From Plasmodiophora brassicae (lineage: Eukaryota): a stretch of 64,000 nt of DNA. Made by a program: the position numbers and the translations under genes. Each line of letters starts with the position of its first letter. The stretch's first letter is position 1. Where the stretch lies: NCBI GenBank assembly GCA_036867785.1, contig CP145425.1:620001-684000 (forward strand), read 5' to 3'. A model generated the notes under the pieces. It saw only the letters and a list, made by a program, of their open reading frames with translations. It did no database searches and was not told the origin of the DNA. Shown here in pieces: positions 22,865-63,300 of the stretch.

Positions 22865-22904
22865 CGCGAACACACCGGTAGACGGACAGGAAACGGGACG
22901 GCAG

Positions 22905-33761: not shown

Positions 33762-34538
33762 ATGGACACGTCATCGTCGTCTTCCAGCGAGAGCGAGGTC
33801 GGCGTTCAGGCGATTGCGGCACCAGTAGGCCATGGCCAGCGCGACCAGTCCGAATTCAAGCCGAAGGGAAAGAAGGTTCGCGAGTTCGTGTCCACTGAGC
33901 ACATCTCTGCGCTGGCTGACAGCTACTACTCGCACTTCGAGCATTACTGCGAGGGCCGCAAGAAGGCGGTGACGCAAGTGATTCCAGGAGCGGTTTGGAA
34001 ACAGGTCAGGTTCACGATTTGGGCAACTCGTACTCCTGGTATTGATTTATGTTTCAAGGTCTACGCCGAGTACCGACAAAAGTTCCCCGATTCGACGTTC
34101 TGCGAGGCGAACTTGAAGGTTCGCCTTCGCGACACGCTCCTGGAGCTCAAAACCGGTACCTCCAACATGGAAAACGTGCCGAAACGCGAGCTTCAAGCCA
34201 AGTCGGTGATTGAGCGACTTAAGACGCTCGATTCACACTGCAAGCGGAACGTCATCCAGTTGCGTGACTCAATCGTGCAGCGGAAGACCCCCGAAAAGAA
34301 GCCACGGGTTGAGTCGCCGTCTCCCCCTGACACGGCGGCTCCGAAGAACAAGGCGCAGGCTCTGTCCTGTCAGGCAATGGCGTTCACGCAGATCGCGAAA
34401 GCGATGCACGATCGAGGTCGCCTAACCGAGTCCCGGATCAAGCAAACGGAGCTCTCAAATCTCAAGGAGCTCCGTGATGCGGGCGTCATTTCGGACGAGG
34501 AGTTCAGGCAGAAGGCCCGCACCCTTATGGGGCTTTAA
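33762..34538 (+). CDS. Accessory (Myb/SANT-like) protein of the Harbinger-type element with SHOCT-like C-terminus; probable 54-nt in-frame intron ~34005-34058
   Basis: Position opposite the transposase; WKQ|VYAEY..FP..LKVRLRD; C-terminal LSNLKELRDAGVISDEEFRQK. Confidence 0.65.
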   Translation: MDTSSSSSSESEVGVQAIAAPVGHGQRDQSEFKPKGKKVREFVSTEHISALADSYYSHFEHYCEGRKKAVTQVIPGAVWKQVRFTIWATRTPGIDLCFKVYAEYRQKFPDSTFCEANLKVRLRDTLLELKTGTSNMENVPKRELQAKSVIERLKTLDSHCKRNVIQLRDSIVQRKTPEKKPRVESPSPPDTAAPKNKAQALSCQAMAFTQIAKAMHDRGRLTESRIKQTELSNLKELRDAGVISDEEFRQKARTLMGL

Positions 34539-34575
34539 ACATGGCGTGTATTTCGATAAAGGTTCTTCGCGCTTG

Positions 34576-38700: not shown

Positions 38701-39470
38701 CGCGACGCCCGAGTACTTGGTCACGGACGGTGGTTCACACTTCACTGCAGAAGTCATGGAGGAGCTTACCCGGCTACGAGATGTTCAGCATCACATCACA
38801 ACGGCATATTGTCCGTGGGCTAACGGCACGGTGGAACGCGCGAACCGCACTGTGCTTAACGTCATGCGATCAGTCCTGAACGAGGCCCAGATTAGCACGC
38901 ACAACTGGCCGTACTAATGTCCTGTTGTTCAGCATGTCATCAACCACACACCAAGTCGACGACTCAACGGCTACGCGCCATTCACGGTTATCACGGGACG
39001 TTCACCGGAAAGCCCGCTTGACCAGATCTGGGACCCAGTAGAAAGACAGTGTCGACGAGTACCACCGGAGGGATTCGCCAAATACGTGCAGATGTTGCAA
39101 GAGACTCTCGACGAGATCCACAAGGCCGTCGATGAAGCGAAGGCACAGCGACATGCTGCCAATGTTAAGCAACGACGACGACGACTCAAGAGTAGTCCCT
39201 ACGAATCGTTCATCGTTGGCGACTACGTGCTCAATGCCAAACCGGTACCAGGTCCTGCGCAGAAGCTGATAGCGCAGTGGCAGGGACCGTATCGAGTTGT
39301 CAAGCAAATCAGCGAGCAAGTGTATGAGTTGGAGAACCCACTATCTGAACGACGCTTCAACGCACACACGCAACGAATTCGACGATATGCAGACGCTGAC
39401 TTGAACATGACCGTCGATTTGAAGCGCCACCTCCAACACACTGACCAGCATTTGATTGTTGACGACCTAT

Positions 39471-42400: not shown

Positions 42401-44910
42401 GCGAACGCGACGATGATCCAGCTTGGTCGTCTTCTTCGAAGAGGGGTGAGGGCGCATGGCGTACGCGTCGCAGCCGTAGACGCGCAGGGAAGAGACATCA
42501 GGTTTAGCGAAGCGAGCCGCCTGGAACGATGAGCGACGCCCCGGAAGGACGGATCGAGGATGGACATTGTAGAGGACGGCAGAATACGAGAGTGACCAGG
42601 GCCAGGTGAAATCGGGCATACGCGCGTGACACCGGATAGCGCCTTCGATACAGCACAGGCTGTAGTTGACAATTTCGGCTCGGCCGTTCTGCTCGGGCGT
42701 ATACGGAACCGACTTGCGATGAAGGATGCCGGACTCATTGTAGAACGTAACGCATACCTTGGAATTAAACTCGCCCCCGCCGTCTGTTTGGAAGTCGGAA
42801 ATGCCACGTCCCTCCTGGTTGCGGAACGTGCTTCGTAGTGCTTGATGACATCGAGGGCGTCCGATTTCCTCGACGGAGCAGGTAGACGGTCAGGTAGCTC
42901 GTTGAATCATCCAGCATGGTCTGGTAATACTCGAAACCGCCAATACCGACGACAGGCCACCGCCCGGAGAGGTCACTATGGACGAGATCGCCAACGTGAC
43001 GTGCTCGCGACGTACTGGGAGGGAATGATGAGCGCTTGCCTTTGGTGAGAAGACAGGCCTCGCATGGACATCGATCCTGAAGCTTGGGAATGGGCTGATC
43101 GAAGGCCATTCCCCGACAGCGGCGCTGCAGGAGACGCAGATTGACGTAGCCGAGAGGTCCAACGCGCGCGTGCCAAAGGGCGGGCGATGCGGAGGCGACT
43201 GTGGCGGCGCGGCAGGACACGCTGGGCGCACCCGATGAATAAATTTCAGTTGACGATGGGGCAGCGGGAGCACGCAGGGCGATCCTGTAGAGATTATCGG
43301 CTCCTCGCGTGCTGACCGCTAGCGGGGTCCCGACAGGGGACGTCCAGTTGTCCTTGGAATAGATGGTCGCGTTGGGCCCATCGAAGACGATCTTGTGCCC
43401 GGATCGGGTGAGCTGTCCAACGGAGACGAGCGCTTGGCCGAGTCGTGGGACGTGCAGCGAATCGATAGGCGCCATCTGGGACTGATCAGCGCCCAATGAC
43501 GTCACGCCACGTCCGGAAGTGGTCGTACGAGACAGGTCTGCAAGTTCAACAGTCGGTCCGGCGACATGTCGGTAAGCGCCGAGATGCTCGCGCAGGGGCG
43601 TCATTGTGGTGGAACATCCAGAATCGAGCAGGCCGACGGAACTGTTGTCTACGGCGGGGTGACGGGCAGACATGGCGCGAACCGGGACGTACTGATCAGG
43701 TTGCGACGATGTATTCGATGTCGTCCGCCACAACGAGCGCTGTAGGAAACAGTTGCCATTCGTGTACGGCTTCCTCGAGGTCGTATGTAGGACGCACAGT
43801 CCATCGCGTTCGGGAGCCTTGATCGGGTGTGCGGTGGCGCTTGCACGGTTCGCCGTTGCGAACGATATCTCCCGGTCAGCATGAGCCTCTTGAATGCGCT
43901 GCTCTTCTGATGTGAGCGTGGACACGACCTCAGTGACAGTAGGCCGCGGTTCGAGTCCACGACTGTGCAGGTTGGATGCGGCCGTGTCCAATTCTGATGA
44001 GGCGTTGCCAGCCATCAGGACAGCCAGGAAGGAATCCGTCATGTGAAGCATGTCGTTCGGGACTGTTGTACGGAAACGTTGGGCAGCGGCTTGCAGACGG
44101 GCCGCGTACAAGGCGACCGATTCACCGGCTTGCTGTCGAACACTGAACAAATCTTTAGAAGCACGAATGACAGACGAAAACGTGCAGGGTCGCAGCATGC
44201 GGAAGAGAGCGCGCCAGCATTGCGCCGATGTACCGGCGTACAGCAAGTTGTAGCCGATCAGAACGGTCTTGTCGACCATCTGAAACAAGAGTATCTCCCG
44301 AGCAGTTGCCTCCAGATCCGCGTCCACATTGTCGGGGATACTCGGAGTCGGCGATCCGTCCAGGTCGATGCCGACAATTCCAGCGAATCCACGGTTGGTA
44401 AACCAAGACGCGGCGGCGGGCGCCCAAGCGGCAAACGATTCGTGCTTGCCGTCGAACCGAGGCGGAGGCACGCGATCTGTACCTGGACGCACTACGCCGT
44501 CCACAATGGTTGGGCGAGGCTGCGTCGTCGGCGTCGTGGCGATGCAGGAGTACGATGCGGTTTGCTGTCGCAGGAATGCGATGCGCGCGATCTTCTCCTG
44601 TCGCTCGGCCTCAGCGAGCTGCGCGTCGAGATCTTGGACATCTGACTCCGCCGTTCGGCCGCGATCGCCATGACGTTGGACGCGAGCGAGACGCCCAGAG
44701 CGCGGTTACGACTGTTAATCTGAAACGACGAAATCAGAGTGAGATTTATTGATGGATATAGAGCGAAGATATTGGGTGTGACGGGCAACGTCGTAGACGT
44801 GAGACGCGCTGCACGTTACATCATCGCGGGCGGCGCTGACACCAGACTTTCGGAGTGCGTGGCAGCGTCGGTGTGCTGCACGAGTGTGCTGCTGGATATG
44901 GAGTTCGACA
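39471..44910 (-). mobile_element. Ty1/Copia LTR retrotransposon (frameshifted): Gag, protease, integrase, RT, RNase H
   Basis: 190-bp LTRs 39471-39660 and 44721-44910 with a few differences; PPT GGAGGGGGCG. LLDSGCS, VHSDL, WVFRVK..ARLCAQGF, KALYGTKQ, HTDD, YADADWA, YEDNQ; integrase upstream of RT. Confidence 0.95.
41108..41291 (-). mobile_element. Solo LTR (184 bp) of a related Copia family inside the Copia RT
   Basis: TG...CA ends, 5-bp TSD GACTT (41103-41107, 41292-41296). Begins TGTCGAAC on the minus strand like the host LTR. Confidence 0.85.
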
Positions 44911-47900
44911 ACCACTGAGGTCTGCTCGAAGGGCCTTGCCGTTCCGATCATGAAACTGCACGGCGAACACGGGACATTGACGCTGTACAACATGCGATTC
45001 TACATCTCGACGATGATTGCGAAGACGCTGCTCGGAAACCCGATTCTCACGGCTATGGGAATTGATCCCAAACAGCAGTTGGAGTCGCTGATGTTAACGA
45101 ACGTTGGGGTCATGCAGTTCGATGCTGACTCGCTCGAGACGGTGGAGAGGGTGACGGCCAAGATGATCGAACTGAGCGCCAACCACGGATGCAACCCCTA
45201 CGCGAACGGCGAAGGCGAGCCGACGCGCAGTGAGATCGATCTCGGAAAGGTTGATCCGTCTGGTATCAGCAAGGCTGTCAACGACATGATCAAGCAGGCT
45301 AAGAAGAATGGCATTTCGAGGCAAGGCTTGAGGCGACTGCGGAAGTTCTTGAACAAGCACATGAACGAATTCCGTACGACGCTGGGGTCTGACCCACCTG
45401 TGGACGTGGAACCATTGAGGACGGACCTGAAGGACGGTGCCACACCATATCGGTGCAAGCCGCGCATGTACAATCCGAAGCAAAAGGAGTTCTTGACGGA
45501 CATGATACGGATGCTGAAGGACAACGGCCTGATCTTTGCGAACATGAAACTCGAAGTGGGCCAGTCCTGTCCTGATCGTCAAGAAGCCACACAGGGACGG
45601 CTACCGACTATGCGTCGACCTTCGACAGGTGAACCTGCGATCTGAGCCAACTGTCTGGCCCATGCCGAACATCGAGGCGGGCGCCCGCAAACTCGAAGGT
45701 ATGTCGTGTTTCTTCAGCTTGGATGCCTTCAAGGGATTCTGGTTGATGCCTCTGGACAAATCTTGTCAAGAGATGTTTTCGTTCATGACAGACGATTCGG
45801 TTTGGACACCTACACGAAGCATCCAGGGCGGACTGAACACGGTCCCGCAATTCCAAGCAAGGATGGTGAACATCTTCGACGACCTGATGGATCGAATGAT
45901 GGTCTGGATTGATGATCTGCTGGGATTCGCGAAGACGGAGGCCGAGCTTCTGGAACTGCTGGCCAACGTATTCGAACGGGCACGCGAAGTCGGACTGAAG
46001 TTCAACCCTACGAAATGCACGATCTTCGCCAGGGAGCTGGTCTGGTGCGGGAAGATCTACTCTGGCAACGGCATTCGACATGACCCGGAACGGATAGCAG
46101 CTCTGACAAGCATGCCGGAGCCGAAGACGGTTAAAGACCTGCAGCAACTGATGTGGGCGGTGGGATGGATGCGCACGAGCATCCCGGATTACCCGTACAT
46201 CATCGAGCCACTACAGGAGGTCGTTGACCGGGCGAATGAGGAGCTGAAACGAACGAAGTCTAGTTCTTATGCCTCATTGACGGTGGACGCGATGGGCTGG
46301 TCTGAACGACAACGAGAAGGATTCGAGAAGCTGCGGGCGGTGCTGGTCGAACACGTGCAACTGGCCTACCCCAAGAAGGATTTCCAGACCTGCCTCTTCA
46401 CGGACGCAAGCGAATTCGCATGGTCAGCGGTCGTGACTCAGATTCCAATGGAGGACATCGTATTGCCGATCAGTGAGCAACGACATGAACCGCTGGCGTT
46501 CTACGGGAAACGCTTCGACAACACGCAGCTACGGTGGCCTATCATCGAGAAAGAGGCAGCGGCGATCGTCCCGGCGACTACGCGAGGCGATTTCTTGCTG
46601 CAAACCGGACGTGAGTTCCTGCTCTACTGCGATCATCGGAATCTACGATACATCTTCAACAACGACATGGAGATGAAGAAGCACACAGCCGCAAAGCTGG
46701 AGCGGTGGTCCGTTCATCTGCAGGATTCCGGTACAAAATGGTGGACATCAGCGGGGAGGACAATGCGTGGGCAGATCTACTGACGCGATGGGGCGCGGGT
46801 CGAATCGCGCTTACGTGTCGGGCAACTCGAGTCATGTCCATGGAAGCCCTGCGAGTAACCCCCATGGCGCACGACGGATTCGAATGGCCTCGTGAAGCCG
46901 ACATACGACAATCCCAGAAGCTGCTGACCGACGACGAGAAGGCAGCATTCAAGGCGCAATGGGATGATCGCGACAAACTGTCTCTGGACAGGTGTTAATT
47001 CCAAGCCATGATGACGCAGAGACGTTACGACTACGGATCCTGGTCGTGGCACACTGCGGCAGCGCTATGCATCGTGGAGGAACAACCACCAAAGAAGCGG
47101 TTATGAGACGATTCCGCTGGGCTGGAGTGGAGGAGCACGTGCAACAAATGTGCTATCAGTGCCTGCACTGCGTCACCACTCGAGGAGGAGAACGGGCTCC
47201 GCGGCCTCTGGGTCAGGCTGTTCACGGTCACGAAAGGTTTCAGGTGCTGCATATGGACTACATGTACGCCGAGCCGGTTCGCGGAGCGGACCACGACTAC
47301 AAGTATATATTGCTGCTCAAGGACGACTTCTCGGGACTCGTCCGCCTGATTCCTTGCACGAACGCGACGGCCCGGACTGCAGCTGATTCCCTGATGGCGT
47401 GGATCGCTGACTTCGGGACGCCAGAGATCCTGGTTACCGATGACGGTTCACATTTCACCGCTGAGGTGATGGAGGATTTGAGTCGGCTACGTCACGTTGC
47501 GCATCACATCACGTTGGCGTACTGTCCATGGTCGAATGGAACGGTCGAACGGGCGAATGGAACGGTCGTGGAGATGCTGAGGAGCCTACTGAATGAGAAC
47601 CTGATCGACACCCACAACTGGCCGTACGCATGTCAGCTGGTGCAGCATGCCATGAACCATGCGCCTTCAAGGCGTCACGGAGGTCATGCACCGGTGACGG
47701 CGGCGTTTGGCATCCTCTAGACCTGATCTGGGACTTGAAGGCTAGCGATTGGCGACCTGTGAATCCTGCGACTATTACTCAACACATCGAGAAGATGAAG
47801 GACGATTTCGACAACATACACAAGGATGTCGAGATGGGCAAAGAGAAGCGGCATCCAGCCAATGTCCAGCAGCGCAACAGGCAGCTACGTCCTGGAGACG

Positions 47901-49558
47901 ATGAAGCATTCATTCCAGGTGACTACGTCTTGTGCGCACGACCGAACATGGGCGCGGGGAACAAACTGATCGCCAAGTGGAATGGCCCGTTCCGTTTGCT
48001 GCAGCGACTGAAAGATCAAGTGTACTTGCTGTACGATCCTCTTCACGAGAAGGAGTTTCGGGCGCACATCCAACGAATCAGACGATATGCTGATGGGAAG
48101 TTGAACATGAAGGCGACGTGAAGAAGCATCTTCAGCACTCGAATCACAAGCTCTTGGTGGAGAATCTAGCTGACTGCCGATACAATGCGAGCGAGAAGCG
48201 AGTCGAAATCAAAGTGCTCTGGGAAGGATTCGAGGGATCGGACGCCACATGGGAACCGGCGGACATCATAATCGAGGACGTGCCGACGATGGCTCGTGAT
48301 CTGTATGACCGACTGGGAGATGACCACCCTCAGGCGGAGGAGTTGCGAACACTGTTGAACTCGGCGGCGACGAACGGGAATCACCAGCCCGCCTCGAAAC
48401 GACGTCAAGCAAAAGGAGCGCGACGTCAGGCCGGGACTAAACGACAACGGAATTGACGATATGATGATGGACCGGCTGGAACATGGTAAAGTAGCTGGTC
48501 GAAGGTTGCTAACTGTACATAGGCAACGAGGAACAACGACGCGAAAACGGAAAGGACGTCGATTGGACGCACGGTGCGCGGAGCACTGGCGTGGGCATTC
48601 GGCCCGAACCACTGGGCATGGGACTCAGTCTGAGAACATTCAGCAAATTGGCCATTGAATGGGATCATGTACCAAATGGAAACCAACGGTACGGAACTCG
48701 CATATGCATGGGGAAACACTCCACCACAGTCGGATCCTAAAGATTGGACTTCGGCTAACCCTGGTAGTCCCGAATAACGGACGCCAGTCATCGGACTCCT
48801 AAAGATTGGGCTTCGGTGAACCGATATCGGATGGGAACGGAACTAACTACGGATGCACATGGCTGGACGCGGTGTGGGTATTCGTGCTGGTTGCGAGCGG
48901 AACTTACTGGACGCAGTAGTGAGCTCACAACCGGCGCTGATGTAGTGTGTTGGACGCAACTCACAGAATCAGTGCATGGGGAACGGGAACTGGAATTGGA
49001 TGAACTGGGTGCGAATTGGGAACTGTGGGAATTGGAAATGGTGCCTTAATGTCGGCGTATGACTTGTCGTACACCACATGGGGACGGTTGGATGGATCAC
49101 TGGGAAATATGGAATGTGTGGTGACTCGCTGGAGTGATTTGGAATGGATGGGTGCCTGTAACGAGGTGACCACCTCCCACGTGGGGGGTGGATGTCGTCA
49201 GTATGGCTGAGAACTGTTAGCACTATGCTGACATGGTCCGGGCAACTCCGTCCTTATTGCGATGAGTCTAATCTCAAGAAACGGGCGTGACAGTAACGCC
49301 TACGTGTCGCACGAAAGCAGCAACGAGCCTACGTATCTCTACGTCTGCATCCAGGTCATGTTCGGAAAAGTGCAGTGTAGACGGTGGAGCAGTGCAGCAT
49401 GCCCTGTCGCAGCCAGAGATACCAAGAACAGCATCTAGGAGAGGCAGCCCTAAGACCAGGGAGAGTCCGTACGGCATGCGGGAACGCCGGACGGGAGGAG
49501 GAGAAGGATTAGGAGATCTGGGAACGAGGACGCTGAGGTTCTCTATACACGATCTACA
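44911..49558 (+). mobile_element. Ty3/Gypsy family W1, second copy: 5'-truncated at protease, frameshifted, 3' LTR 49376-49558
   Basis: Near-identical to 11992-16693 with small indels and substitutions. Confidence 0.95.
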
Positions 49559-49720
49559 CAGTGCGGGCACGGTGGCCTATTCGGGCAGGACGCAATAAAA
49601 TGCCCAACTTCGCGACAATAGTGGCAAGCCAGGGGTTGTGCCCTTGCATCACCGCCAGCGTTGATGGCGGCGATTGGGTATTTCGACTCAAGATGAGCTG
49701 TGACGACAGAGCAAGATGTG

Positions 49721-52171
49721 TCAACCACACGGATTGACCGACTGAGGTCGGTCCGCGCCGTGGACGTTTATTGTACCTAGTGCGCTACGAAGGAGCCCAA
49801 TTTGGTGCCGGCTGAGTCGCCAACACGACTCAGTCGTGACATAATAGTCCCCTTTTAGCCGCACCGGGAACGGGCTGCGGGCTTGTCTGGGTGGAAGCAT
49901 TTGGTGAGGCCTAGCAAGAACTGCTTCATCATTAGGCGACAGTCTGTACTCCAGTCGACGAGTCAGGGCGTCAGGTGTCCAATGAACGAAACCAACTTCG
50001 CTAAGGAATTGGAGTGAACGAATCTGTCGTCGATGTAGCTTGTGGGCAAACGCACGTGCGGCGGCGTCCAGGAACATGAGATCGAGGTTGAGAAACGCGA
50101 TCGAGGTTGATGAGGCCTGGTCATCCTCTAGCGTAGCAAAAGGTGCAAAGAAGGACTCGGCGGGCGCATTCAAGGGCGGGGGCTCCGCAGAGGCGCTCGT
50201 ACACAGCTGTGCTATTGGAAAATACGGCCACCCAACTAGGATCCAGGTCAGGGCGACAACGGTTGCGAACATCAGAAGATTGAGGCTGTGGCCGTCTCGG
50301 AAGCCATCATTGGAGGGAGGCGGCGGGAGAGGCCGTCTGGCCCCTCGTCGCACGGGGCCCCAGTTCCGGAAGGAGGACATAAGGGGCGTGGACTCGGAGC
50401 CTGAACGGGGCAATGATAAGAGATCGGCGCGGCTGGGGGCAACAGTATCATTGAAGGCGGCGACCCCCGGGATGCTACCATAATCGAATGCGGAAGGGCG
50501 CGGCAACGTGTCAAGTGATTCAGCTGAAGGCCGGATGGCACACGCAGGCGCAGGAACGCTTCGTGCAGGAGGTGAGACCCCAGCTGAGAGACTATCCCCG
50601 CGCTTTACTGTTGCAAATGGTCCCGCCGAAGAGACGAAGGACCCAGACTCATGGACGTCTCCTGTACGGCGTGACATCCCCACGAGGGTATCTCCGCGGC
50701 GCTGTAGGCGGCGCTGACGCCAATCGATATCTGGGTTTGTATCCGCCAACCAAGGCAGCCCAAGAATGACAGGGTGTTGAGGCGAGTGGATCATGTTCAG
50801 GACGACGTCGCTGTCGAAACATTCGTCGACGGTAGCACGTAGCGGGACGGTTTCCTGAGTTACTGGAGACAGGTGTCGCCCGTCGATGACGCGAACAGGA
50901 ATGGCACGCGATTTAGAGCGAACCGGTATTTCGTGGTGACGACAGAACGACCAGTCGATGAAGTTGGAAGTCGCACCACAGTCTAACAGGGCGAAGGTGT
51001 TGACACGGCGTGAGCCGATAACGAGGCATACCGATACCAACAGATGCGGTATTGAGGGAGACGTCATAAGGAACAGATCAGTGACGTGGAGAGGGTTGCC
51101 GGACCGCTCGGGACACAGCGATGAGCGGTGGCCAACCTTACGACAGTGCGGGCACGGTGGCCTCTTCGGGCAGGACGCAATAAAATGCCCAACTTCGCGA
51201 CAATAGTGGCAAGCCAGGGGTTGTGTCCTTGCATCACCGCCAGCGTTGATGGCGGCGATTGGGTATTTCGACTCAAGATGAGCCGCCATCTCGAGAATTT
51301 TGTCGTAGTCTCTGAAGTTGTACAAGAACAGCGCTTCGGAGAGCGCAGGGTTCAGCGAGAGGCGGAACTTTTCCGCCAAGCGGGCCGGACTGAGTCTGTA
51401 CAATGGGTCAAGTCGTTGAAGGTCCTTGTACAAGCGTTGGAATGCCAGTGCGTGGTGAGCGACACCTGCAGTCTGCTTCAGGTTGTCAAACTTCGCTTCA
51501 ACCTGCTTGAACGAAGGTCCCGGGAAGTCATGGAGCAGGACGGACGAAACGTCCGCCATAGACGCGTCCGCAGGCAAGTCGAGGTAAGTCTCAAGAGCCT
51601 GACCTTGCAAGGCTGTCGTTAAGACACATTGCACTTCGCCGGATAGAGGACTTGTAGACGTTAACGACGTCTGGGTGATCCGAGAGAACGCAGTCAACCA
51701 GCGCGTCGTCGACAGACCATCCCTTCCCGAAAAACGCGGAATGTCTTGTGACTGGACAACAATAGACGTTAAGGGTGGGCCCGGAGACACCCGTGGCGCC
51801 GGCACCCGAGCCCCAACGGACGAAGCGCCAATATGCTGCGACGTTGGGGAGACAGGGTCATGCCGAGGCGCGCCGCCGGGGTCCTGCAGAGACGTCGAGG
51901 CGGCAGAAACGTGTAGGGACGATAAGGCAGGCGGGGAGTGACGGTCCGAAGAGGACAGAGAGTCGTCGGGCCAATCGGCAGCGGTACTATTGAGCGAATG
52001 CGGGGTGAGCGGTCGTGCAGGGAGATGATTCGCCAGTGGCCGAACACCACGCGCGAAGTGCAGCTGCGACAGGGGACCGAGAGCAAAATCCGACGCACCC
52101 GCAACATCCGGATTCGCGGACGATGGGACGTCGTCCGTCAATGACGGAATCGACCCATCGCCTCCTGCCAT
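49721..52171 (-). CDS. S2 Gag-protease-TM polyprotein (~816 aa), running into the 3' LTR
   Basis: IPRFSG, two CCHC knuckles, [21 protein letters not shown], hydrophobic LNLLMFATVVALTWILVGW. Confidence 0.88.
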   Translation of the reverse strand: MAGGDGSIPSLTDDVPSSANPDVAGASDFALGPLSQLHFARGVRPLANHLPARPLTPHSLNSTAADWPDDSLSSSDRHSPPALSSLHVSAASTSLQDPGGAPRHDPVSPTSQHIGASSVGARVPAPRVSPGPPLTSIVVQSQDIPRFSGRDGLSTTRWLTAFSRITQTSLTSTSPLSGEVQCVLTTALQGQALETYLDLPADASMADVSSVLLHDFPGPSFKQVEAKFDNLKQTAGVAHHALAFQRLYKDLQRLDPLYRLSPARLAEKFRLSLNPALSEALFLYNFRDYDKILEMAAHLESKYPIAAINAGGDARTQPLACHYCREVGHFIASCPKRPPCPHCRKVGHRSSLCPERSGNPLHVTDLFLMTSPSIPHLLVSVCLVIGSRRVNTFALLDCGATSNFIDWSFCRHHEIPVRSKSRAIPVRVIDGRHLSPVTQETVPLRATVDECFDSDVVLNMIHSPQHPVILGLPWLADTNPDIDWRQRRLQRRGDTLVGMSRRTGDVHESGSFVSSAGPFATVKRGDSLSAGVSPPARSVPAPACAIRPSAESLDTLPRPSAFDYGSIPGVAAFNDTVAPSRADLLSLPRSGSESTPLMSSFRNWGPVRRGARRPLPPPPSNDGFRDGHSLNLLMFATVVALTWILVGWPYFPIAQLCTSASAEPPPLNAPAESFFAPFATLEDDQASSTSIAFLNLDLMFLDAAARAFAHKLHRRQIRSLQFLSEVGFVHWTPDALTRRLEYRLSPNDEAVLARPHQMLPPRQARSPFPVRLKGDYYVTTESCWRLSRHQIGLLRSALGTINVHGADRPQSVNPCG

Positions 52172-52199
52172 GAATGCAATACAATACCAACGATAGAAG

Positions 52200-52395
52200 C
52201 GGTACGGCACGATACGATACGGCACAATACGATACGATACGGCACAATACGATACGATACGGCACAATACGATTCGATACGGCACAATACGATTCGATAC
52301 GACACAATACGATACGATACGGCACAATACGATACGGTACGGCACAATACGATACGAGTCGAGACAATACGATACGATACGGCACAATACGAGTC
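52200..52395. repeat. Pentamer-based tandem repeat (GATAC/GGCAC/AATAC; ~20-bp unit) in the S2 5' leader
   Basis: Read directly; only about 2 units in the older copy (53495-53535). Confidence 0.9.
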
Positions 52396-53715
52396 GAGAC
52401 AAGACGACGACAGAAGGTTAGTCGGTCAAAATGTGACGACAGAGCAAGATGTGTCAACCACACGGATTGACCGACTGAGGTCGGTCCGCGCCGTGGACGT
52501 TTATTGTACCTAGTGCGCTACGAAGGAGCCCAATTTGGTGCCGGCTGAGTCGCCAACACGACTCAGTCGTGACATGAGCCGCCATCTCGAGAATTTTGTC
52601 GTGGTCTCTGAAGTTGCAGAAGAACAGCGCTTCGGAGAGCGCAGGGTTCAACGAGAGGCGGAACTTTTCCGCCAAGCGGGCCGGATTGAGTCTGTACAAT
52701 GGGTCAAGTCGTTGAAGGTCCTTGTACAAGCGTTGGAATGCCAGTGCGTGGTGAGCGACACCTGGGGTCTGCTTTAGGTTGTCAAACTTCGCTTCAACCT
52801 GCTTGAACGAAGGGCCCGGGAAGTCATGGAGCAGGACCGACGCTACGTCCGCCATAGACGCGTCCGCAGGCAAGTCGAGGTAAGTCTCAAGGGCCTGACC
52901 TTGCAAGGCTATCGTTAAGACACATTGCACATCGCCGGATAGAGGACTTGTAGACGTTAACGACGTCTGGGTGATCCGAGAGAACGCAGTCAACCAACGC
53001 GTCGTCGACAGACCATCGCTTCCCGAAAAACGCGGAATGTCTTGTGACTGGACAACAATAGACGTTAAGGGTGGGCCCGGAGACACCCGTGGCGCTGGCA
53101 CCCGAGCCCCAACGGACGAAGCGCCAATATGCTGCGACGTCGAGGAGACAGGGTCATGCCGAGGCGCGCCGCCGGGGTCCTGCAGAGACGTCGAGGCGGC
53201 AGAAACGTGTAGGGACGATAAGGCAGGCGGGGAGTGACGGTCTGAAGGGGACAGAGAGTCGTCGGGCCAATCGGCAGCGGTACTATTGAGCGAAGGCGGG
53301 GTGAGCGGTCGTGCAGGGAGATGATTCGCCAGTGGCAGAACACCCCGCGCGAAGTGCATCTGCGACAGGGGACCGAGAGCAAAATCCGACGCACCCGCAA
53401 CATCCGGATTCACGGACGATGGGACGTCGTCCGCCAATGACGGAATCGACCCATCGCCTCCTGCCATGAATGCAATACAATACCAACGATAGAAACGGTA
53501 CGGCACGGTACGATACGGCACAATACGATACGAGTCGAGACAAGACGACGACAGAAGGTTAGTCGGTCAAAATGTGAAGACAGAGCAAGATGAGTCAACC
53601 ACACGGATTGACCGACTGAGGTCGGTCCGCGCCGTGGACGTTTATTGTACCTATTGCGCTACGAAGGAGCCCAATTTGGTGCCGGCTGAGTCGCCAACAC
53701 GACTCAGTCGTGACA

Positions 53716-56700
53716 CTATCCTCCTACAAACTCCATTTGAGACGCATGGCAGCCGACCGATTAGATGATCATCTAAAGAACAACATCAAAGAAAGCAAAT
53801 GGGGAGACTATCCCAACCGACAACGATATCGAGACGACGCCAAAAACATAGCATACGACAGCAGAAAAATCCATACCCTCCCCCTGCTGAATCGCGCCCG
53901 CTTGGGATACTGCGGCGCCCGGCAGCACCTCTATAACATTAGCCAAGACATGGCCGGAGAGTCATCTCAATGCCAGCACTGCGGGAACGCAACCGAAGCC
54001 ATTGAGCATCAACTCCTGCACTGCACCGCATTGCGCCACAAACTACAACAAGAACGCGACGTATACGCGAGACTATGGAAAAACTCCTTCACAGAAGCCC
54101 TCTGGAAATATGAAGACGAGATGACTAACATTCTCAAGTCTGCAAAGGACAAAAAATGCATGTACATCTAACAACACGCCAAGACCATCAACCCCACCAA
54201 GAACGAAGTACAAATCCGTGCTGATCTCGCGGTGCAGGTTACCCTGCGCCGCCAAGGCCACAGGGCCTAAAATTAATGTTATGGGTGCTGTAGTCAGTCT
54301 CGAGCCAATATCCCAATGAGCTTTATCATCCATCCCATCCACGGCGTCGACCATGCCATCACAGTGGAGCTAAATCCGTGCAGGCCCCCTTTCCTCAGGA
54401 CAGCAGGACCCCCTCCTCAGGACAGCAGCATCTTGAGGTCGGGCACGAGACGCTAAATATAGAGCCCCGCTCTACACTGCCTTTCTCCGAACTCGTGCCC
54501 GGAACCAGCAACATCATCATCGTGCCCGGCGAAGATAGAGCAGACGGCGAAGGGTAGTGTGAGACTCGGAATCACCCAGTACTCACTAAAAACCACCTTG
54601 TAACCCCATGGGAAAAATCGGTGGAAAATCCATTTACGGACACCCTTGCCACAGCCAGCCGAGATGGAGGTACATGAACTGACGAAAACATCGGCGATGG
54701 GGCGCTCGACCCAGATGGGTGGAGCCCGGTCCATATACACCCGAAAAGTATCATTCACCTAGCTCAGCGGCCGACACAGATGCGTGGACCCCCAGCGCAA
54801 CAGAGTCTCGATAGTCAGAACGCCCTGACCAGAGTCAAATCTGCGGTGACGAGTGACTTAACGGATGCTGCCGAATGTCCCGTGACACAACGATATTGAT
54901 GAGGCCACCTGTGTGACTACCCATCGAATAACGTGATGGCCTCTCAGAGGAGCGCCATAAACCGTGGTTGCATGATCGCATAACAACCAGGTTGACTGAT
55001 TCCATGACTTGCATGCAAACCAGTTGCAATGGTCCCATTTATTTGAGAACCGGGCCCACAATGATTGAGGACCATGATCATGATCATCCTCGTATCGTCC
55101 AGTGCAGAACCGATACGGTTGCGTCGTCCTTCCGGTCCCGACGGTACTGAATAAGCGTGTTTGACGGTTGACTCCTGTACAACCACAAACCGTAAACACT
55201 GCACAGGCATTGTCATTCATACCTAGTGCCGTCGTCGCTGCTTCCGCTTTGTCTGGCGTTGCGCGTTACTCGCTCGCTTTGGTGCTGGGGCGAGTCGTCG
55301 ACTTGGTGTGTGGTTGATGACATGCTGGACAACAGGACATAAGTACGGCCAGTTGTGCGTGCTAATCTGGGCCTCGTTCAGGACTGATCGCATGACGTTG
55401 AGCACCGTGCGGTTCGCGCGTTCCACCGTGCCGTTAGCCCACGGACAATATGCCGTTGTGATGTGATGCTGAACATCTCGTAGCCGGGTAAGCTCCTCCA
55501 TGACTTCTGCAGTGAAGTGTGAACCACCGTCCGTGACCAAGTACTCGGGCGTCGCGAAATCGGCAATCCACTGATTCAGAGCTTCCGCAGCAACACGACT
55601 TGTCGCTTCAGCTGATGGAATCAGACGAACATAACCACTGAAGTCGTCCTTCAAGAGCAGAATATACTTGTACTTGTGGTCCGCGCCCCTGACAGGCTCC
55701 ACATAGAGATAGTCCATGGTGAGTACGTCGAACGGCTGGTGACCATGTAATGCTTCACCGAGCGGCCGAGGAACTTTCTTACCACCGCGTGTCGTGATGC
55801 AACGCAAGCATTGCTGACGCATCGCTTCAATGTCCTGATTGATCTTGGTCCAGAAGAAGCGCTCCGTGATCATCTGCTTGGTTACTTCCGACGCACGATG
55901 ACCAGCGCTTGCGCAATGGCCAATGACCAGGATCCGAAGGCGTAGACTCTTGCAGTCTTGATGACAAGGAATAAGAACGGCTTTGCTCTCGTTCTTCCAC
56001 AGACGATCAGCTTCATCGAAGTACACCCCGTCCTCGATCTTCTCCTCTCGTGACAGAAAGCGTTGCGAATCGCGGATCTCCTTTTCAGTCGGCCAGCTGA
56101 ATTCAGGATGTTGCCGAGGAGTGACTCGCAAATCGTCCATCTGCATGGTGCGCGTTGCTCTACATGACAGTGCGATGCGACCAGCTCCCCATCGGGTCAG
56201 AAGGTCTGCCCATACGTTGTCGGTTCCAGCGATCTCCTTCATCTTGAGGCTGAAGCCTTGTAGATGCAATGCCCATCGCTCTAGCTTCTGCGCCGTATGC
56301 TTCTTGATCTCCGAGTTCCGGTCGAAGATGAACGTCAGATTGCGATGATCGCAGTAGAGCAGGAACTCCCGGGATGTCTGCAGTAGGAAATCACCGCGCT
56401 GCGTAGCGTTGATGATCGCGGCTGCCTCCTTCTCGATCGTGGGCCATCTGATCTCTGCACCTGAGAAGCGCTTGCCGTAGAATGCGAGAGGTTCATGTCG
56501 TTGTTCGCATACAGGCAGGTTGACGTCTTCCATCGGGATCTGCGTAACCACCGCCGACCATGCTGCATCACTGGCGTCCGTGAACAGACAGGTCTGATGA
56601 TCCTCCTTCGGAAATGCCAGCTGAACGTGTTGAATCAAAGCGAAGCGCACGTCCTCGAATGACTTGCTGTGCTGATCGGACCAGCCCAGTGCGTCCAGCG

Positions 56701-59700
56701 AGACACATGATGGCGATGATGATCGAATGCGCTTGAGCTCCTCGTTGGCAATGTCAAGCAGCTCTTGCAGCGGTCGTACTATACTTGCGTAGCCGGGTAC
56801 GTGGGTACGCATCCAGTTGGCCGCCCACAGAAACTGCTGCAGGTCGTTAGCGGTCTTCGGGCGTGGCATGCTGGTCAACGCCTCGATACGTTCTGGATCA
56901 TGCCGAACTCCTTCTCGCGAGTATATCCTGCCGCACCACTTCAACTCGCGAGCGAACAACGTGCACTTGTTCGGGTTCAGCTTCAGGTTGCGCTCGCGAC
57001 ACCGCTCCTACACTCGTGTCAGTTGATGAAGAAGGTCTTCCTCCGACCTCGCGAATCCGAGTATGTCGTCAATCCAGATGAGCAAATTCTCCTTCATGTC
57101 GTCGAAGATAGCTGCCATTCGGCCGTGGAACTGAACCGCCGAATTCATTTCCCCTTGAATGCTCCTCGTAGGCGTGAATACAGCGTCGTCCGTCATGAAG
57201 CTGAAGATTTCCTGACACTCCTTAGCCAAAGGCATCAACCAGAAGCCCTTGAAAGCATCAATCGTGAAGAAACAAGTCATGCCGGAGAGCTTGCGCGTAA
57301 CAGCCTCAACATTCGGCATCGGCCATGCTGTGGGAACACACCGTGCGTTCACTTGGCGAAGATCGACACATAGACGATAGCCATCGCCTTTCGGTTTCTT
57401 GACGACTAGGACTGGACTTGCCCATCGCGAGTTCATATTCATGTAGACAAGACCGTTCTCCTTCAGCATACTGATCATGTCGTCTAGGAACTCCTTCTGC
57501 TTAGGATTGTAGAACCGAGGCTTGCACCGGTACGGAGTAGCGTCCTGCTTGAGTTGTGTTACCATCGGTTCGACATCGACAGGCTTGTCTTGACCCAGAC
57601 GCGTGCGGAATTCGTTCAGATGTCGTCGCAAGATCAATCGTAGCTTAGCAACTCCTTGACGAGACATGCCATTGAGACGTGCTTGGTGTACCATCCGGTT
57701 ACAAGAAGCTTCGATCTCGTGAGCATTGATCGGTCCCAAGTCAACTTCACTTGACGACGGTTCCATAGAGTCCGACTCTGGTACTGGGTAGTGATCTCCT
57801 CGCAACGTTGCCATTCTCGCGGCAATTCGCCTCACGGTCTCGATACAATCGACATCGACTGCGGCACATCCTGAGAGCGTATCCATCTCGGTGCATCCTG
57901 ATGCGATGATGTTCTCGAGTTGCTGACGCGGATTGATGCCGAGAGTCGTTAGTAGATTGTCACCGAACAGGATCACAGGAATCTCGTCGCAAACGTAGTA
58001 GGTCACATGATACAGCGTCAAATTGCCAACTTCGGTCTCCAGGATCGTGATTGGAACTTGCACCGTGCGCGTTATGGTTCCGATAACTTTGCCTTCTGCT
58101 GAGGTGACGTCTCGTTGTTGAACGTCGCGGAACGTGGCTTCTTTCAACTGGACAGCGATAGGGCCAGGCATGATGTTGCCTCCGCGGCAGCCGGAATCCA
58201 ACTCGTACGGAACACGTATGCCTTCCAGCACTACGCGTTGTAGATCATCGACAGTCTCAGCGTACCCGTTAGTCTTCTGGATCTTTATCGGGCGATGGTT
58301 GGCGCGAACAAGCTCATAGCACTTCTCCTTGGACGGCTTCGTCGGACACTCCTTTAAACTGTGCGACCCCGCACAGTTCCAACACGTGATCTTGGCGCCT
58401 TTACGTTCAGCTGCAGTGTCGCGTGTCCGCTTCGTGCTCGACGTTGTCTCATTCTCGGCCGTCGACACGCTAGGGGGTATGAACTGTACCGTTGGTTCTC
58501 CAGGCGACTTGACCTTCGTAGCAGGTGTCTGCTGCTGACGCAGGTGAGCGGGCTTCGGACGGGTCGGCCGATTCAGAGGAGGAGGACGATGTTCCCGAAC
58601 GCGTCATCCCCCCGACGTGATCGCCACCTGATACTTGTGGCTGCGGTCGTTCAGACGAAGCTTGGCGCAGGTCTTCTTGGATACGCCACCAATCATGGCT
58701 GAACCGTTGACAGCGACCTTGTGCATGATCCACTCCTGCACCTGCTTCATAATCGCCTTCAAGTCCCCTTCGCGCTTGGACTTGTCCTCCTTGACCCATT
58801 GCCTTGTGAAGTCACGTAGCCTCCACGGTTGCAACGAATCAACCAAAAAACGGCCAAGGGCTCTACGCCCACCGACCGTTTCGCGCAAGTGCTGCCAGCC
58901 TCGTCTCCACTGGATTTCAGTCATGCGATCCAGGATCGACTGCACTTGATCCCTCAGAGTCGGGAGGCTGGTGTCCATCGACAGCTCACTCGCGATTTTG
59001 GCCTCAATGTCTTGGGTCGTCAGGCCATGACTCGCTGGAAGCTTTTTGATCTGCGCTTCGATCCATCCTTCCAGGTCGTCATCTGTCAGCAGGTCGACAT
59101 TGTTCAGGAATAGGTGATTCAACGCGATGCAGGTCAGCTGCGGCGTGGTAAAGCAGAATCGTATCGCTTGAGGCTTGATCCTCGCGGCTTCCGGACGGTT
59201 GCCCTCACGGTCGATAACCACTGCACAATATCGATCGTACTGCTCTTTCAACTTCAAGATGGATGTGGAGTCCAACTTCGCGACCCGTGGCAGGATGCTG
59301 ACATCCGCGTCCTTGACACCAATATGCTCGTCCGTGCTGGACGTCGTCTCCGATGCCATGGCGCAGCGTCTCGAACGTGGTGCGGGACGAAGTCAGACGT
59401 GTGGGATCAGAGAGTGCGCACTGTAGTCAGTCTCGAGCCAATATCCCAATGAGCTTTATCATCCATCCCATCCACGGCGTCGACCATGCCATCACAGTGG
59501 AGCTAAATCCGTGCAGGCCCCCTTTCCTCAGGACAGCAGGACGCCAGGACCCCCTCCTCAGGACAGCAGCATCTTGAGGTCGGGCACGAGACGCTAAATA
59601 TAGAGCCCCGCTCTACAGTGCCCGACAGCCCAGTAAGTGTCGTTTAGGAGTTTTCTTAGGGGATCACTTGAGCAGGTTGGAAGGCGAAGGGGCGCCTGTA

Positions 59701-60099: not shown

Positions 60100-60223
60100 T
60101 GGGTCGAGTCGTCTTGGCGACTCAGCCGGCACCTAATTGGGCTCCTCCGATCCGCAGCGCACTACAAAACTCAAGCTCAGTCGGTCAATCAGTGAGGTTG
60201 ACACATCTTGTTCGGTCATCACA
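60100..60223 (+). mobile_element. Degenerate solo LTR related to family S2
   Basis: GAGTCGTCTTGGCGACTCAGCCGGCACC...CTCAGTCGGTCAATC...GGTTGACACATCTTG...TCACA aligns with the S2 LTR sense strand. Confidence 0.8.
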
Positions 60224-60359: not shown

Positions 60360-63300
60360 TCAGGTGTGAGTGTTGAAAAGCAAGCGCCGCCAGTGCAACG
60401 TTAACAGTCGGGAGCCGTCACGGGACTCCTCGGCGCTATCCGACCTGCAGTCGTGCTTGCGATGCGGTTTGCGTTCCGGCGATCCATCGACGTCGCTCGC
60501 GTGGTGAGGTTTGCAGTTGCACTCCAGGGTTTCCGTCTCTGTGGTCTGATCCGCCGACGACGACGTGGACGACGAGCTGAACTCTGTCGCGGATGACCCC
60601 GGTGCGCCGTCTGATGAGTCCGGGCGGCACCACCCATGCCGGCATTGCGTTCGGGGCCTGCGGGGAGTCGCAGACGTGCCAGCTGGAGGCAATGGGCCTG
60701 GAGCATCCGACGACTTTGGCGCCGAAGTTGCTGCTGTCGCGGGGGCGGCAGACGTCCCTGGAGCATTGGTCACTGGGGCAGAGGATGTAGTAGTTGGTAC
60801 AGCAGAGGTCGGTGTACAAGGAGCCTCTGACGTAGACCTTGCTGGCGGAGTAGACCCTGTTGGTGAGGAAGCTGGAGCAAAAGATGTTCGAGCGGCACTT
60901 GTTGCTGGGACAGCAGTTGTTGATGGAGCAGCGGATGTCTCAGGGGCAACAGAGGCTGTTGAAGTAGCAGACGGTGGTGCTGGAACAGCAGGCGTTGTCG
61001 CAGTAGGAGATGCCGTTGGGGAAGTCGACGTCATTGGAGCAGCGCGGGACGTCGCTGCAATGGTCAACGTAGCGGGCGCGGACGACCTCGCCGGCGCAGT
61101 CGATGTCATTGGAGCCGTCGCTGGTGTGGCCGGCGCTGCCGACGTCGTGGACACGGCTGGCGAATATGCCGCAGGCGTCGTGGCTGGCAGAGAAGGAGTT
61201 GCCGGTGCGGGCGTCGCTTCCATTGTAGTCGGCGCGAGCGTTGTCTGCGTCGGGGGCGCCGGCGATGGCTGCGGGCTACTAGGTGCAGGTGTAGTCGGAT
61301 GGTCACTCGAAGGATACGTCTGACCTGGTGTGGGGACTGGCGTCCCATATTGGGGAGTCGGAGCTTTTGATTCACGTGCTGGAGTCGGCGCCCTCGTCGC
61401 ATACGTAGGCGGCGCCATGGTCGCATGGGGAGACGGCGCTTTTGTTTCATGTGCTGGAGTCGGGGCCTTGGTCGCATAGGTAGGTGGCGCCTTGGTCGCA
61501 TGGGGAGTCGGCGCCTTGGTCGCATGGGGAGTCGGCGTTTTCGTCGCATGAGGAGTCGGCGCCTTGGTCGCATACGTAGGCGGCGCCTTGGTCGCATGGG
61601 GAGTCGGCGCTTTTGTTTCATGTGCTGGAGTCGGGGCCTTGGTCGCATACGTAGGCGGCGCCTTCGTCGCATGGGGAGTCGGCGCTTTGGTCGCATGGGG
61701 AGTCGGCGCCTTGGTCGCATGAGGAGTCGGCGATTTGGTCGCATGGGGAGTCGGCGCCTTGGTCGCATAGGTAGGTGGCGCATTGGTCGCATGGGGGGTC
61801 GGCGCCTTGGTCGGATGGGGAGTCGGCGTTTTCGTCGCATGGGGAGTCGGCGCCTTGGTCGCATACGTAGGCGGCGCCTTGGTCGCATGGGGAGTCGGCG
61901 CTTTTGTTTCATGTGCTGGAGTCGGGGCCTTGGTCGCATACGTAGGCGGCGCCTTGGTTGCATGGGGAGTCGGCGCCTTGGTCGCATACGTAGGCGGCGC
62001 CTTGGTCGCATAGGGAGTCGGCGCTTTTGTTTCATGTGCTGGAGTCGGGGCCTTGGTCGCATACGTAGGGGGCGCCTTCGTCGCATGGGGAGTCGGCGCT
62101 TTGGTCGCATGGGGAGTCGGCGCCTTGGTCGCATGAGGAGTCGGCGATTTGGTCGCATGGGGAGTCGGCGCCTTGGTCGCATAGGTAGGTGGCGCATTGG
62201 TCGCATGGGGGGTCGGCGCCTTGGTCGGATGGGGAGTCGGCGTTTTCGTCGCATGGGGAGTCGGCGCCTTGGTCGCATACGTAGGCGGCGCCTTGGTCGC
62301 ATGGGGAGTCGGCGCTTTTGTTTCATGTGCTGGAGTCGGGGCCTTGGTCGCATACGTAGGCGGCGCCTTGGTCGCATGGGGAGTCGGCGCCTTGGTCGCA
62401 TGGGGAGTCGGCGCCTTGGTCGCATAGGTAGGTGGCGCCTTGGTCGCATGGGGGGTCGGCGCCTTGGTCGGATGGGGAGTCGGCGCATGATGTGGGGTCG
62501 GCGCGTGACCCTGCTGCGGCGTGGGTGCCGGCCTTGGACCGGGACCTGGGTGATGTTCACGACCCGTATAATCCGAACCGTCACCGCTGCGCGACGATTC
62601 GTCACCCGTCCCCTGATGATCACTGCTCGTCGATTCGTCCCCTTTCCGACTCGACCACGATTCACCATCATCGGTTCCCCCGCTGGTCGGCTCGTCGCTG
62701 ATTCGAGTGCCCGACGAATGACCGGATGACGTCGTGCCGGTCTCGTGGCCCGATCCGTCTCGCCGGCTGTCGCCGCCACCACTCGACGTTCCTTGATCTC
62801 CAGGACCGCATAACGGCCGCCCTCCCGTATGATAGGAACCCGTCCTGAACGTGATCGGTGGCGGCCGGGGGCAACGGCTCAGCTTGTGCATGCCCGTGTC
62901 CAGGTCCCTACGTACATGCAGGCATGCGACGTTGGCGTACGTTTGGCACGACACCGGCCGGCGAGGGCGTTGGGCTCGCTTACAGGTCCTTATCGGGGCA
63001 GTACGACGTCAGGTGCGCGAACAGTGCATCGTCCAGGTCGCCCAGGTTTGGCATGCCGTGCATCTCGCTACAGTCAGGGCGCACGACATCAGTCATGATC
63101 AGCGGCCGGCCGTCAAGCCCGGCCTCAGCCGCTCACGTGTACGTACAGGTATTCGAGACGTGTGAGACTGTGGAACAGGGTCGGCGGGATCGTCCGCAGC
63201 GGCGTGTCGTTCATGAGCAGCGTCTTCAGCTGTGTCAGGTGCAGGAACGCGTCCTTGTCGATCGTCGTACACGGGTTCGTCTGAATGTTCCTGTTTGCGT

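What the first reader, a model, noticed from the sequence alone, without database searches (positions are those of the whole stretch)
49699..52574. Recently mobile RT-less LTR element that keeps an intact Gag-protease-TM ORF and inserted into its own kind
Seen: identical LTRs, perfect TSD, PBS and PPT, one uninterrupted ~816-aa ORF, but no RT, RNase H or integrase. It sits in the gag of an older S2 copy, and a related solo LTR lies at 60100-60223. Known: plant TR-GAG and BARE-2-type elements are partially autonomous. Inference: S2 makes its own capsid and borrows enzymes from an S1-like helper (shared PBS logic and GGACTATT next to the 3' LTR), i.e. a helper/satellite retroelement pair.
Basis: partly seen in the sequence, partly recalled or inferred. 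Interest (0 to 1): 0.72.

Follow-up and report, generated by a model that had tools for sequence, protein, structure and literature searches.

The report
Capsid-making satellite retrotransposon with identified helper
This is a real, recently spreading family of short jumping genes, likely in the clubroot protist, that lost its copying and inserting enzymes but keeps a shell-protein-plus-protease gene, and it likely borrows the missing enzymes from a full-length relative in the same genome, a partnership known from plants.

Summary
Observation confirmed: 2,876-bp element, identical 143-bp LTRs, 5-bp target duplication, 816-aa ORF, nested in an older copy's gag. It is not a one-off deletion. About 18 S2 copies lie on 14 contigs, and three deletion junctions recur in 14-16 of them. 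S2 descends from a Ty3/Gypsy chromovirus: one deletion removed the gag/pol -1 slippery site and fused Gag to protease in frame, and two removed RT, most of RNase H, integrase and chromodomain. Gag variants shared between copies show purifying selection (14 synonymous/13 nonsynonymous) while private ones look neutral (12/35; p=0.04). The hydrophobic helix is inherited from the helper's protease-RT spacer. Complementation is inferred, not shown. Gag/protease-only partners are known in plants (Quinta/Cereba, TR-GAG-like); the protist host, lost frameshift and self-priming make this a variant. The scan had noted the self-priming signature and spacer helix on other DNA of this genome; three look-ups showed no note on this family.

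The parts
52432..52574 (-). 5' LTR, 143 bp, TG...CA; its last ~60 nt are identical to the helper family's LTR
49699..49841 (-). 3' LTR, identical to the 5' LTR; holds the ORF's stop codon
49694..49698 (.). target-site duplication TGAGC (left copy)
52575..52579 (.). target-site duplication TGAGC (right copy)
52467..52476 (-). 10 nt inside the 5' LTR complementary to the primer-binding site (predicted self-primer and RNA start)
52420..52429 (-). primer-binding site, pairs 10/10 with the LTR; same in helper family H
52172..52419 (-). leader with 10/20-nt microsatellite; LTR-to-ATG distance 125-276 nt among 9 copies
49721..52171 (-). single ORF, 816 aa: Gag-protease-spacer-RNase H remnant-tail
51263..51763 (-). 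capsid region (aa 137-303); capsid plus knuckles are 77% identical to helper Gag; Ty3/Arc-type by profile
51107..51211 (-). nucleocapsid, two CCHC knuckles
   Evidence: sequence
51092..51106 (-). junction J1: about 128 nt shorter than H, removing the GGGAAAT slippery site and gag stop, so Gag and protease are in one frame
50714..51091 (-). aspartic protease, active-site motif DCG at 50975-50983
50495..50510 (-). approximate site of a 96-nt in-frame deletion; a C2 copy has a gap at the same place
50228..50350 (-). arginine-rich stretch plus hydrophobic helix (KD19 1.97), inherited from the protease-RT spacer of the autonomous families
50045..50070 (-). junction J2: RT and most of RNase H deleted, frame kept
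49889..50044 (-). RNase H C-terminal remnant (aa 710-761)
49857..49888 (-). junction J3 and last bases of the pol region: integrase and chromodomain deleted, frame shifted so the ORF reads through the helper's stop into the LTR
49842..49856 (-). polypurine tract AAAAGGGGACTATTA, same 15 nt in H
52575..53715 (-). host: 5' half of an older S2 copy (LTR 53573-53715, three differences from the inner LTR)
49559..49698 (-). host: continuation of the older copy's gag, cut at 49558 by another gypsy LTR
60100..60223 (+). diverged solo LTR of the helper (H) type

Best explanation
S2 is a multi-copy, non-autonomous Ty3/Gypsy chromovirus derivative whose single ORF fuses Gag to protease in frame, and it likely moves by co-assembling its Gag with Gag-Pol of the 5.8-kb family H, which would supply reverse transcriptase, RNase H and the chromodomain integrase. 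Shown: family structure, shared junctions, loss of the slippery site, identical cis-signals in S2 and H, different target duplications at each locus. Supported by statistics: selection on S2 Gag and protease. Inferred: RNA from the 5' LTR is translated into one 816-850-aa polyprotein; its Gag favours its own RNA for packaging; H Gag-Pol (made by -1 frameshift) enters the same particle through its Gag part; the 10-nt duplex self-primes; H integrase inserts the cDNA into the retroelement clusters, which is why S2 lands in S2, in H and in other elements.
For: Family: 11 copies with both LTRs and 7 partial ones (two may be halves of one copy) on 14 contigs; target duplications all different, perfect in 10 of 11 and one mismatch in the other; LTR pairs identical in 6 of the 9 uninterrupted copies, one mismatch in 3. 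Junctions J1, J2, J3 found in 14, 16 and 14 copies. ORF intact in 5 of those 9 (816-850 aa), with in-frame indels. Helper: H has gag plus a 1,516-aa pol with PR, RT, RNase H, integrase, SH3 and chromodomain; two copies have both ORFs open, identical LTRs and target duplications. LTRs 87-90% identical, same termini, PPT and self-priming pair, against dS about 0.85 in gag and protease. The last ~60 nt of the LTR are identical to H in the window's subfamily. GGGAAAT precedes the gag stop in 3 of 3 autonomous families and is absent around J1 in 3 of 3 S2 copies tested. Selection among 17 copies: capsid+NC shared variants 14 syn/13 nonsyn (omega 0.30, p=0.002 against neutral), private 12/35 (0.93), Fisher p=0.042; protease 4/3 and 14/14. 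S2 branch: protease omega 0.14. Contigs of 3 of 3 RNA-guessed runs from three studies bridge J1 and J2; H pol pieces appear in 2 of 3.
Against: No protein, particle or complementation data. Gag constraint on the S2 branch (omega 0.45) is weaker than on H plus stem (0.17) and close to that of the decayed relative (0.55). Four of 9 uninterrupted two-LTR copies have a broken ORF, two of them (C14, C7b) with identical LTRs, so an intact ORF may not be strictly needed in cis, or these are later mutations or assembly errors. Within S2 the N-terminus (shared omega 1.44), helix region (0.82) and RNase H remnant (0 syn/5 nonsyn) show no constraint. Gag+protease pooled: shared versus private p=0.098. 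The counts have no transition correction, no tree correction, and several regions were tested. The RNA label of the runs is a guess. No H-derived coding segment was seen in an S2 copy, so co-packaging with H is not directly shown.
Confidence: 0.72

Rival explanations
1. The ORF matters mainly as an open frame: translation to the very end of the RNA stabilises it or delivers it to H particles, and H supplies the capsid too; S2 protein contributes little.
For: The ORF reads through non-ancestral sequence into the 3' LTR in all 5 intact copies; all indels in those copies keep frame; Gag constraint is relaxed on the S2 branch; mouse IAP 1-delta-1 has a gag-pol fusion that acts in cis (passage in PMC6466679).
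Against: An open frame alone does not predict fewer amino-acid changes, yet capsid/NC and protease show them while the N-terminus does not; both zinc knuckles and the DCG motif are kept in the 5 intact copies.
Confidence: 0.15
2. S2 depends on H but mainly acts as a defective-interfering or copy-number-control element: unframeshifted protease and excess variant Gag damp H.
For: S2 (about 18 copies) outnumbers H (7 near-complete copies, 2 with both ORFs, both LTRs and no insertion); every S2 Gag carries a protease; Tj1 needs its gag stop for efficient integration (passage in PMC4600332). Not exclusive of the best explanation.
Against: H has also moved recently (identical LTRs at C2, C15, C17). 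No functional data.
Confidence: 0.25
3. The helper is the 87-bp-LTR family at 17596-23136 or the third family D.
For: Both have copies with open gag and pol elsewhere in the genome, a GGACTAT PPT end and the same kind of LTR/PBS complementarity; self-priming is in cis, so any related RT might serve.
Against: LTR match to S2 only 79% and 76% over 63 nt, different termini; Gag 44% and 35% identical to S2 against 77% for H.
Confidence: 0.07
4. This copy is a one-off post-insertion deletion of a full-length element, or an assembly artefact.
For: Only the window viewed alone.
Against: Same three junctions in 14-16 copies at different loci with different target duplications; junctions bridged by contigs of independent public runs; host and guest differ by 3.6%.
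Confidence: 0.01

Closest known systems
RLG_Quinta / RLG_Cereba of wheat centromeres (PMC11302176; passages seen)
   Same: Non-autonomous Gypsy chromovirus derivative with an intact Gag ORF; partner assigned by identical PBS, LTR termini and PPT; partner integrase has a targeting domain; proposed Gag contribution; clustering.
   Different: Quinta encodes Gag plus an unknown domain, S2 Gag plus protease plus spacer; Cereba has one ORF, H has a frameshift that S2 deleted; S2/H show a self-priming signature; host is a protist; centromere link untested here.
TR-GAG and GAG/PROT-only families of plants (PMC4350172; bioRxiv 10.64898/2026.03.01.708851; PMC9784723; passages seen)
   Same: Under 4 kb, LTRs, PBS, PPT, 5-bp TSD, one ORF with Gag, several copies. 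The sugar beet preprint lists 28 families with only GAG/PROT and 15 with further decayed pol pieces.
   Different: The original TR-GAG filter excluded protease similarity, and TR-GAG1 had no partner found; S2 has a conserved protease, an RNase H remnant and a clear partner; described hosts are plants and algae.
Mouse IAP 1-delta-1 (review PMC6466679; passage seen)
   Same: Internal deletion makes a new in-frame fusion ORF; non-autonomous; successful in making new insertions; fusion reported to act in cis.
   Different: Retroviral lineage; its deletion removes part of gag, whereas S2 keeps whole Gag and protease.
Tf1/Tj1 self-primed elements of fission yeasts (PMC4600332; passages seen)
   Same: PBS complementary to the element's own 5' RNA end.
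   Different: Autonomous; S2 would need the priming steps done by a helper's enzyme.
BARE-2 / BARE-1 (passages in PMC4350172)
   Same: Two-component complementation.
   Different: Opposite architecture: BARE-2 lacks Gag and keeps enzymes.

Membership tests
LTR retrotransposon | Direct terminal repeats TG...CA, PPT, 5-bp TSD | tested here: met
Ty3/Gypsy chromovirus lineage (by descent) | Closest full-length relative has order PR-RT-RH-IN with C-terminal chromodomain | tested here: met
   H pol domains; S2 colinear with H at 66-88% nucleotide identity
Ty3/Gypsy chromovirus lineage (by descent) | Ty3/Arc-type capsid | tested here: met
   No direct Pfam hit on S2 or H Gag; profile of S2/H/C3 Gag finds proteins of which 8 of 16 scanned carry Retrotrans_gag; widened profile hits dArc1 and Ty3 capsid (E 2e-14, 5e-12). 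Transitive evidence.
Autonomous chromovirus | Own RT, RNase H, integrase | tested here: not met
TR-GAG (original definition) | Under 4 kb, single ORF with Gag, two or more copies | tested here: met
TR-GAG (original definition) | No similarity to protease, RT, RNase H or integrase | tested here: not met
   Protease with DCG motif and RNase H remnant present
Autonomous/non-autonomous pair (criteria in PMC11302176) | Identical PBS | tested here: met
   same 10 nt in 9 of 9 S2 and 4 of 5 H copies
Autonomous/non-autonomous pair (criteria in PMC11302176) | Identical LTR termini and PPT | tested here: met
   first 7 and last 9 LTR bases and the 15-nt PPT shared; 3 of the 9 S2 copies differ at one PPT base and one of them at a second
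Autonomous/non-autonomous pair (criteria in PMC11302176) | Only one family in the genome shares these features | tested here: met
   two other chromovirus families examined do not; genome searches score only the best 40 candidates
Autonomous/non-autonomous pair (criteria in PMC11302176) | Co-expression and actual cross-mobilisation | tested here: inconclusive
   contigs only, RNA label guessed
Tf1-type self-primed elements | PBS complementary to sequence inside the 5' LTR | tested here: met
   10/10 in S2 and H, 11/11 with a different sequence in the 87-bp-LTR family
Tf1-type self-primed elements | RNA starts at the pairing site and is cleaved to give the primer | not testable with these tools
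   no raw RNA reads offered
Centromeric retrotransposon pair | Location in CENH3 chromatin | not testable with these tools
   clustering seen; centromeres only putative in the literature passage seen

The most novel reading that the evidence does not exclude
S2 is a specialised satellite that deleted the gag/pol frameshift so that every Gag it makes carries a protease and a membrane-anchor-like helix. It supplies shell and processing enzyme in bulk to mixed particles, keeps its R-U5 matched to the helper by template switching, primes without tRNA, and through excess protease sets the helper's copy number while both build the one-per-chromosome retroelement clusters (candidate centromeres) of a protist pathogen.
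Probability: 0.2. Interest if true: 0.7.

Novelty: new variant of a known kind. Interest (0 to 1): 0.45.

Why it matters
It extends the Gag-donating satellite/helper pairing known from cereal centromeres to a distant eukaryote (likely Rhizaria), in a small genome where the whole pair can be counted. It is a natural experiment on why Gag:Pol frameshifting exists, since a lineage that abolished the frameshift before protease keeps spreading. The family is also a source of recent structural variation in a crop pathogen's repeat clusters, and standard annotation would miss it as a family.

Tried and rejected
Homolog search with the whole ORF found only 9 distant chromovirus-type proteins, none of them close (only 8,000 candidates of 448-1,428 aa scored). 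Single-sequence PDB search with Gag found only zinc knuckles. The structure prediction of the Gag core had not finished after nine collection attempts, so no fold evidence is used. Regional dN/dS is discarded because a frameshifted copy (C14) was mistranslated; only its S2-versus-H values and alignment are used. A third Fisher table was post hoc and had a miscount; not used. The idea that the C6 copy is a full-length parent was rejected: it breaks just before the protease active site and joins an RT fragment only 71% identical to H. The idea that the ORF tail is a chromodomain relic was rejected: it matches RNase H, then out-of-frame sequence. Triplet scans for mosaic S2 copies gave mixed blocks, suggestive only. 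No RNA holder was on record as RNA. Depth differences between S2 and H in the contig runs, and the lack of H cover in run X9, are not used as evidence. No tRNA gene in the window. Literature searches listed no paper whose title or abstract start describes this family, and the passages seen in two genome papers on the likely species name only Gypsy and Copia classes; their supplements and repeat libraries were not seen and may hold it as an unnamed consensus.
Full report
Observation. The element occupies 49699-52574 on the minus strand. Its LTRs are 143 bp and identical, and TGAGC is duplicated on both sides. One ORF of 816 aa runs from 52171 to 49721; Pfam finds a zinc knuckle and a retroviral protease and nothing else. 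Shuffled internal sequence never gave a frame over 297 aa in 500 tries. The flanks are the two halves of an older copy, 96.4% and 98.6% identical to the inner element, and that host is cut at 49558 by another element's LTR.

A family, not an accident. The window lies in a 25.3-Mb genome of 20 contigs. Genome layout fits Plasmodiophora brassicae as described in passages of bioRxiv 10.64898/2026.10.14.759018 and as earlier scan notes say; this is a species-level inference that I did not test with host genes. Searches with the element and its LTR, each scoring the best 40 candidates, gave 11 copies with both LTRs (two of them interrupted by nested insertions, one internally rearranged), 7 partial copies and an S2-type solo LTR, on 14 contigs. 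Target duplications differ at every locus and are perfect in 10 of 11. Of the 9 two-LTR copies without a nested insertion, 6 have identical LTRs and 5 have an intact ORF of 816-850 aa; three have one frameshift each and one is rearranged. Copies differ by 0.2-4.6%. The window copy lacks 96 nt in frame, and its nearest relative on C2 has a gap at the same place.

Origin. The same searches revealed family H: 5.8 kb, 146-bp LTRs, gag overlapping a 1,516-aa pol frame with protease, RT, RNase H, integrase, SH3 and chromodomain. Seven near-complete copies were seen, two with both ORFs open, identical LTRs and target duplications. S2 is colinear with H apart from three deletions. J1 removes about 128 nt holding the GGGAAAT slippery heptamer and the gag stop, which are present in all three autonomous families examined, so Gag and protease are in one frame (that GGGAAAT drives a -1 frameshift is inferred from its form and the frame offset). 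J2 removes RT and most of RNase H in frame. J3 removes integrase and chromodomain and shifts the frame, so translation passes H's stop and ends in the LTR. The three junctions are found in 14, 16 and 14 copies. S2 is not a fresh derivative of present-day H: dS is about 0.85, dN 0.07-0.13 in Gag and protease. A decayed C17 relative shares the in-frame fusion and groups with S2 at 90/100 support.

Which helper. S2 and H share LTR termini, the PPT and a 10-nt pairing between the PBS and the LTR; LTRs are 87-90% identical, and the last ~60 nt are identical in the window's subfamily. I took the self-priming lead from earlier scan notes and confirmed the pairing in 9 of 9 S2 and 4 of 5 H copies; the mechanism is described for Tf1 and Tj1 (PMC4600332, passages). 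By the criteria used for Cereba/Quinta (PMC11302176, passages), H is the partner. Whether R-U5 identity reflects selection or exchange is open; the mismatch between internal and U5 relationships of the window and C2 copies hints at template switching.

Is the protein used? Among 17 copies (the fragmented C11 copy left out), variants shared by two or more copies in capsid plus nucleocapsid are 14 synonymous to 13 nonsynonymous (omega 0.30), while private variants are 12 to 35 (0.93); Fisher p=0.042. Protease is low in both classes (4/3 and 14/14). The spacer's shared variants are also low (12/9). The N-terminus, helix region and RNase H remnant show no constraint. On the S2 branch protease omega is 0.14, but Gag is 0.45 against 0.17 for H plus stem. 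This pattern is what selection in cis during transposition predicts, but the counts are small, uncorrected for transitions, tree or multiple tests, and four copies with young LTRs have broken ORFs. The capsid assignment is transitive: profile hits carry Retrotrans_gag (8 of 16 scanned) and a widened profile hits Ty3 and dArc capsids.

Expression and spread. Twenty public runs from 9 studies hold part of the stretch, none on record as RNA. On a C20 stretch carrying both H and S2, contigs from three RNA-guessed runs of three studies bridge J1 and J2, and H pol pieces appear in two; levels cannot be read from contigs. One contig joins an S2/H-type LTR end to a site that is empty in this genome, a weak sign of polymorphism. 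S2 and H copies sit in one region per contig (spans up to about 105 kb), and the flanks I examined were largely other retroelements. Chromodomain targeting to heterochromatin (passage in PMC4600332) would explain this and makes insertion into its own kind an expected by-product; such non-coding stretches are only putative centromeres in the passage seen (10.1101/2024.04.03.587992).

Mechanism and verdict. Most likely S2 RNA makes one Gag-protease polyprotein, is packaged with preference in cis, and shares particles with H Gag-Pol, which supplies RT/RNase H and integrase. The steps from translation onward are inferred. Gag- and Gag/protease-only non-autonomous families are known in plants (PMC4350172; 28 such families in the sugar beet preprint; PMC9784723), and an in-frame fusion acting in cis is known for mouse IAP 1-delta-1 (PMC6466679); all papers were seen as search passages only. 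S2 fails the original TR-GAG definition because it has a protease, but works like that class. The distinctive combination is a protist host, a deleted frameshift, self-priming and a countable helper. Eight literature searches and three look-ups in the scan's notes showed no description of this family. Verdict: new variant of a known kind, interest 0.45.

Noticed in passing
L052:1501 (G000:C10:273232): One contig of run X9 runs from an S2/H-type LTR end into this site, which in G000 has no S2, H or related sequence within 1.5 kb and lies in a 437-aa stop-free frame without Pfam hit: a possible insertion polymorphism outside the repeat cluster. Single contig; S2 or H cannot be told.
   Followed up: partly
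L038:2415-4114 (G000:C17:586914-588613): Decayed relative about 84% identical to S2 that also has Gag and protease in one frame (five residues longer at the joint); groups with S2 at 90/100 support, so the fusion looks old. It is cut after the protease, so its pol status is unknown.
   Followed up: partly
L041:2422-2564 (G000:C20:144921-145063): S2-type solo LTR with a 5-bp duplication inside the gag of an H copy.
   Followed up: yes
S2 LTRs genome-wide: Two U5 types: one identical to H over the last ~60 nt (window copy), one with four changes, two of which turn an A-U pair of the predicted stem into U-G. The window copy's closest internal relative (C2, 0.7%) has the other type, which suggests template switching.
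   Followed up: partly
L058:1292-7321; L059:1606-7444 (minus): A further chromovirus family (D) with GGGAAAT before the gag stop, LTR/PBS complementarity visible in the printed sequence, and the most hydrophobic spacer helix (KD19 2.56); the C7 copy has part of its 5' LTR duplicated.
   Followed up: partly
window 49699-49841: AATAAA lies at LTR position 70-75, 29 nt before the predicted RNA start, and the ORF stop at 119-121; if polyadenylation follows soon after the start position the S2 mRNA could lack a stop codon.
   Followed up: no
L051:1304-2254 (G000:C20:145603-146553): About 950-bp insertion in an H copy with very high summed contig depth in three of four runs: an unclassified high-copy repeat.
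   Followed up: no
window 10491-16693 and 44911-49558; 33212-38965 and 54351-59617: Two further gypsy families with chromodomain or integrase ORFs, 68-70% alike, unrelated to S2 in their LTRs; one has a single 1,623-aa ORF.
   Followed up: no
window 39471-44909 (minus): Copia-type element with its ORF in three pieces.
   Followed up: no
window 34576-35796 (minus): DDE_Tnp_4 (PIF/Harbinger-type) transposase frame lying inside the gypsy element that starts at 33212.
   Followed up: no
window 60360-63008 (minus): 882-aa frame with 24-nt tandem repeats (Cornifin-like Pfam hit, probably compositional), at the edge of the repeat cluster.
   Followed up: no
L043:738-9672; L042:1624-7376: Nested insertions in two S2 copies begin with the same 30 bases and have internal inverted repeats; they match none of the window's families used as library.
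   Followed up: no
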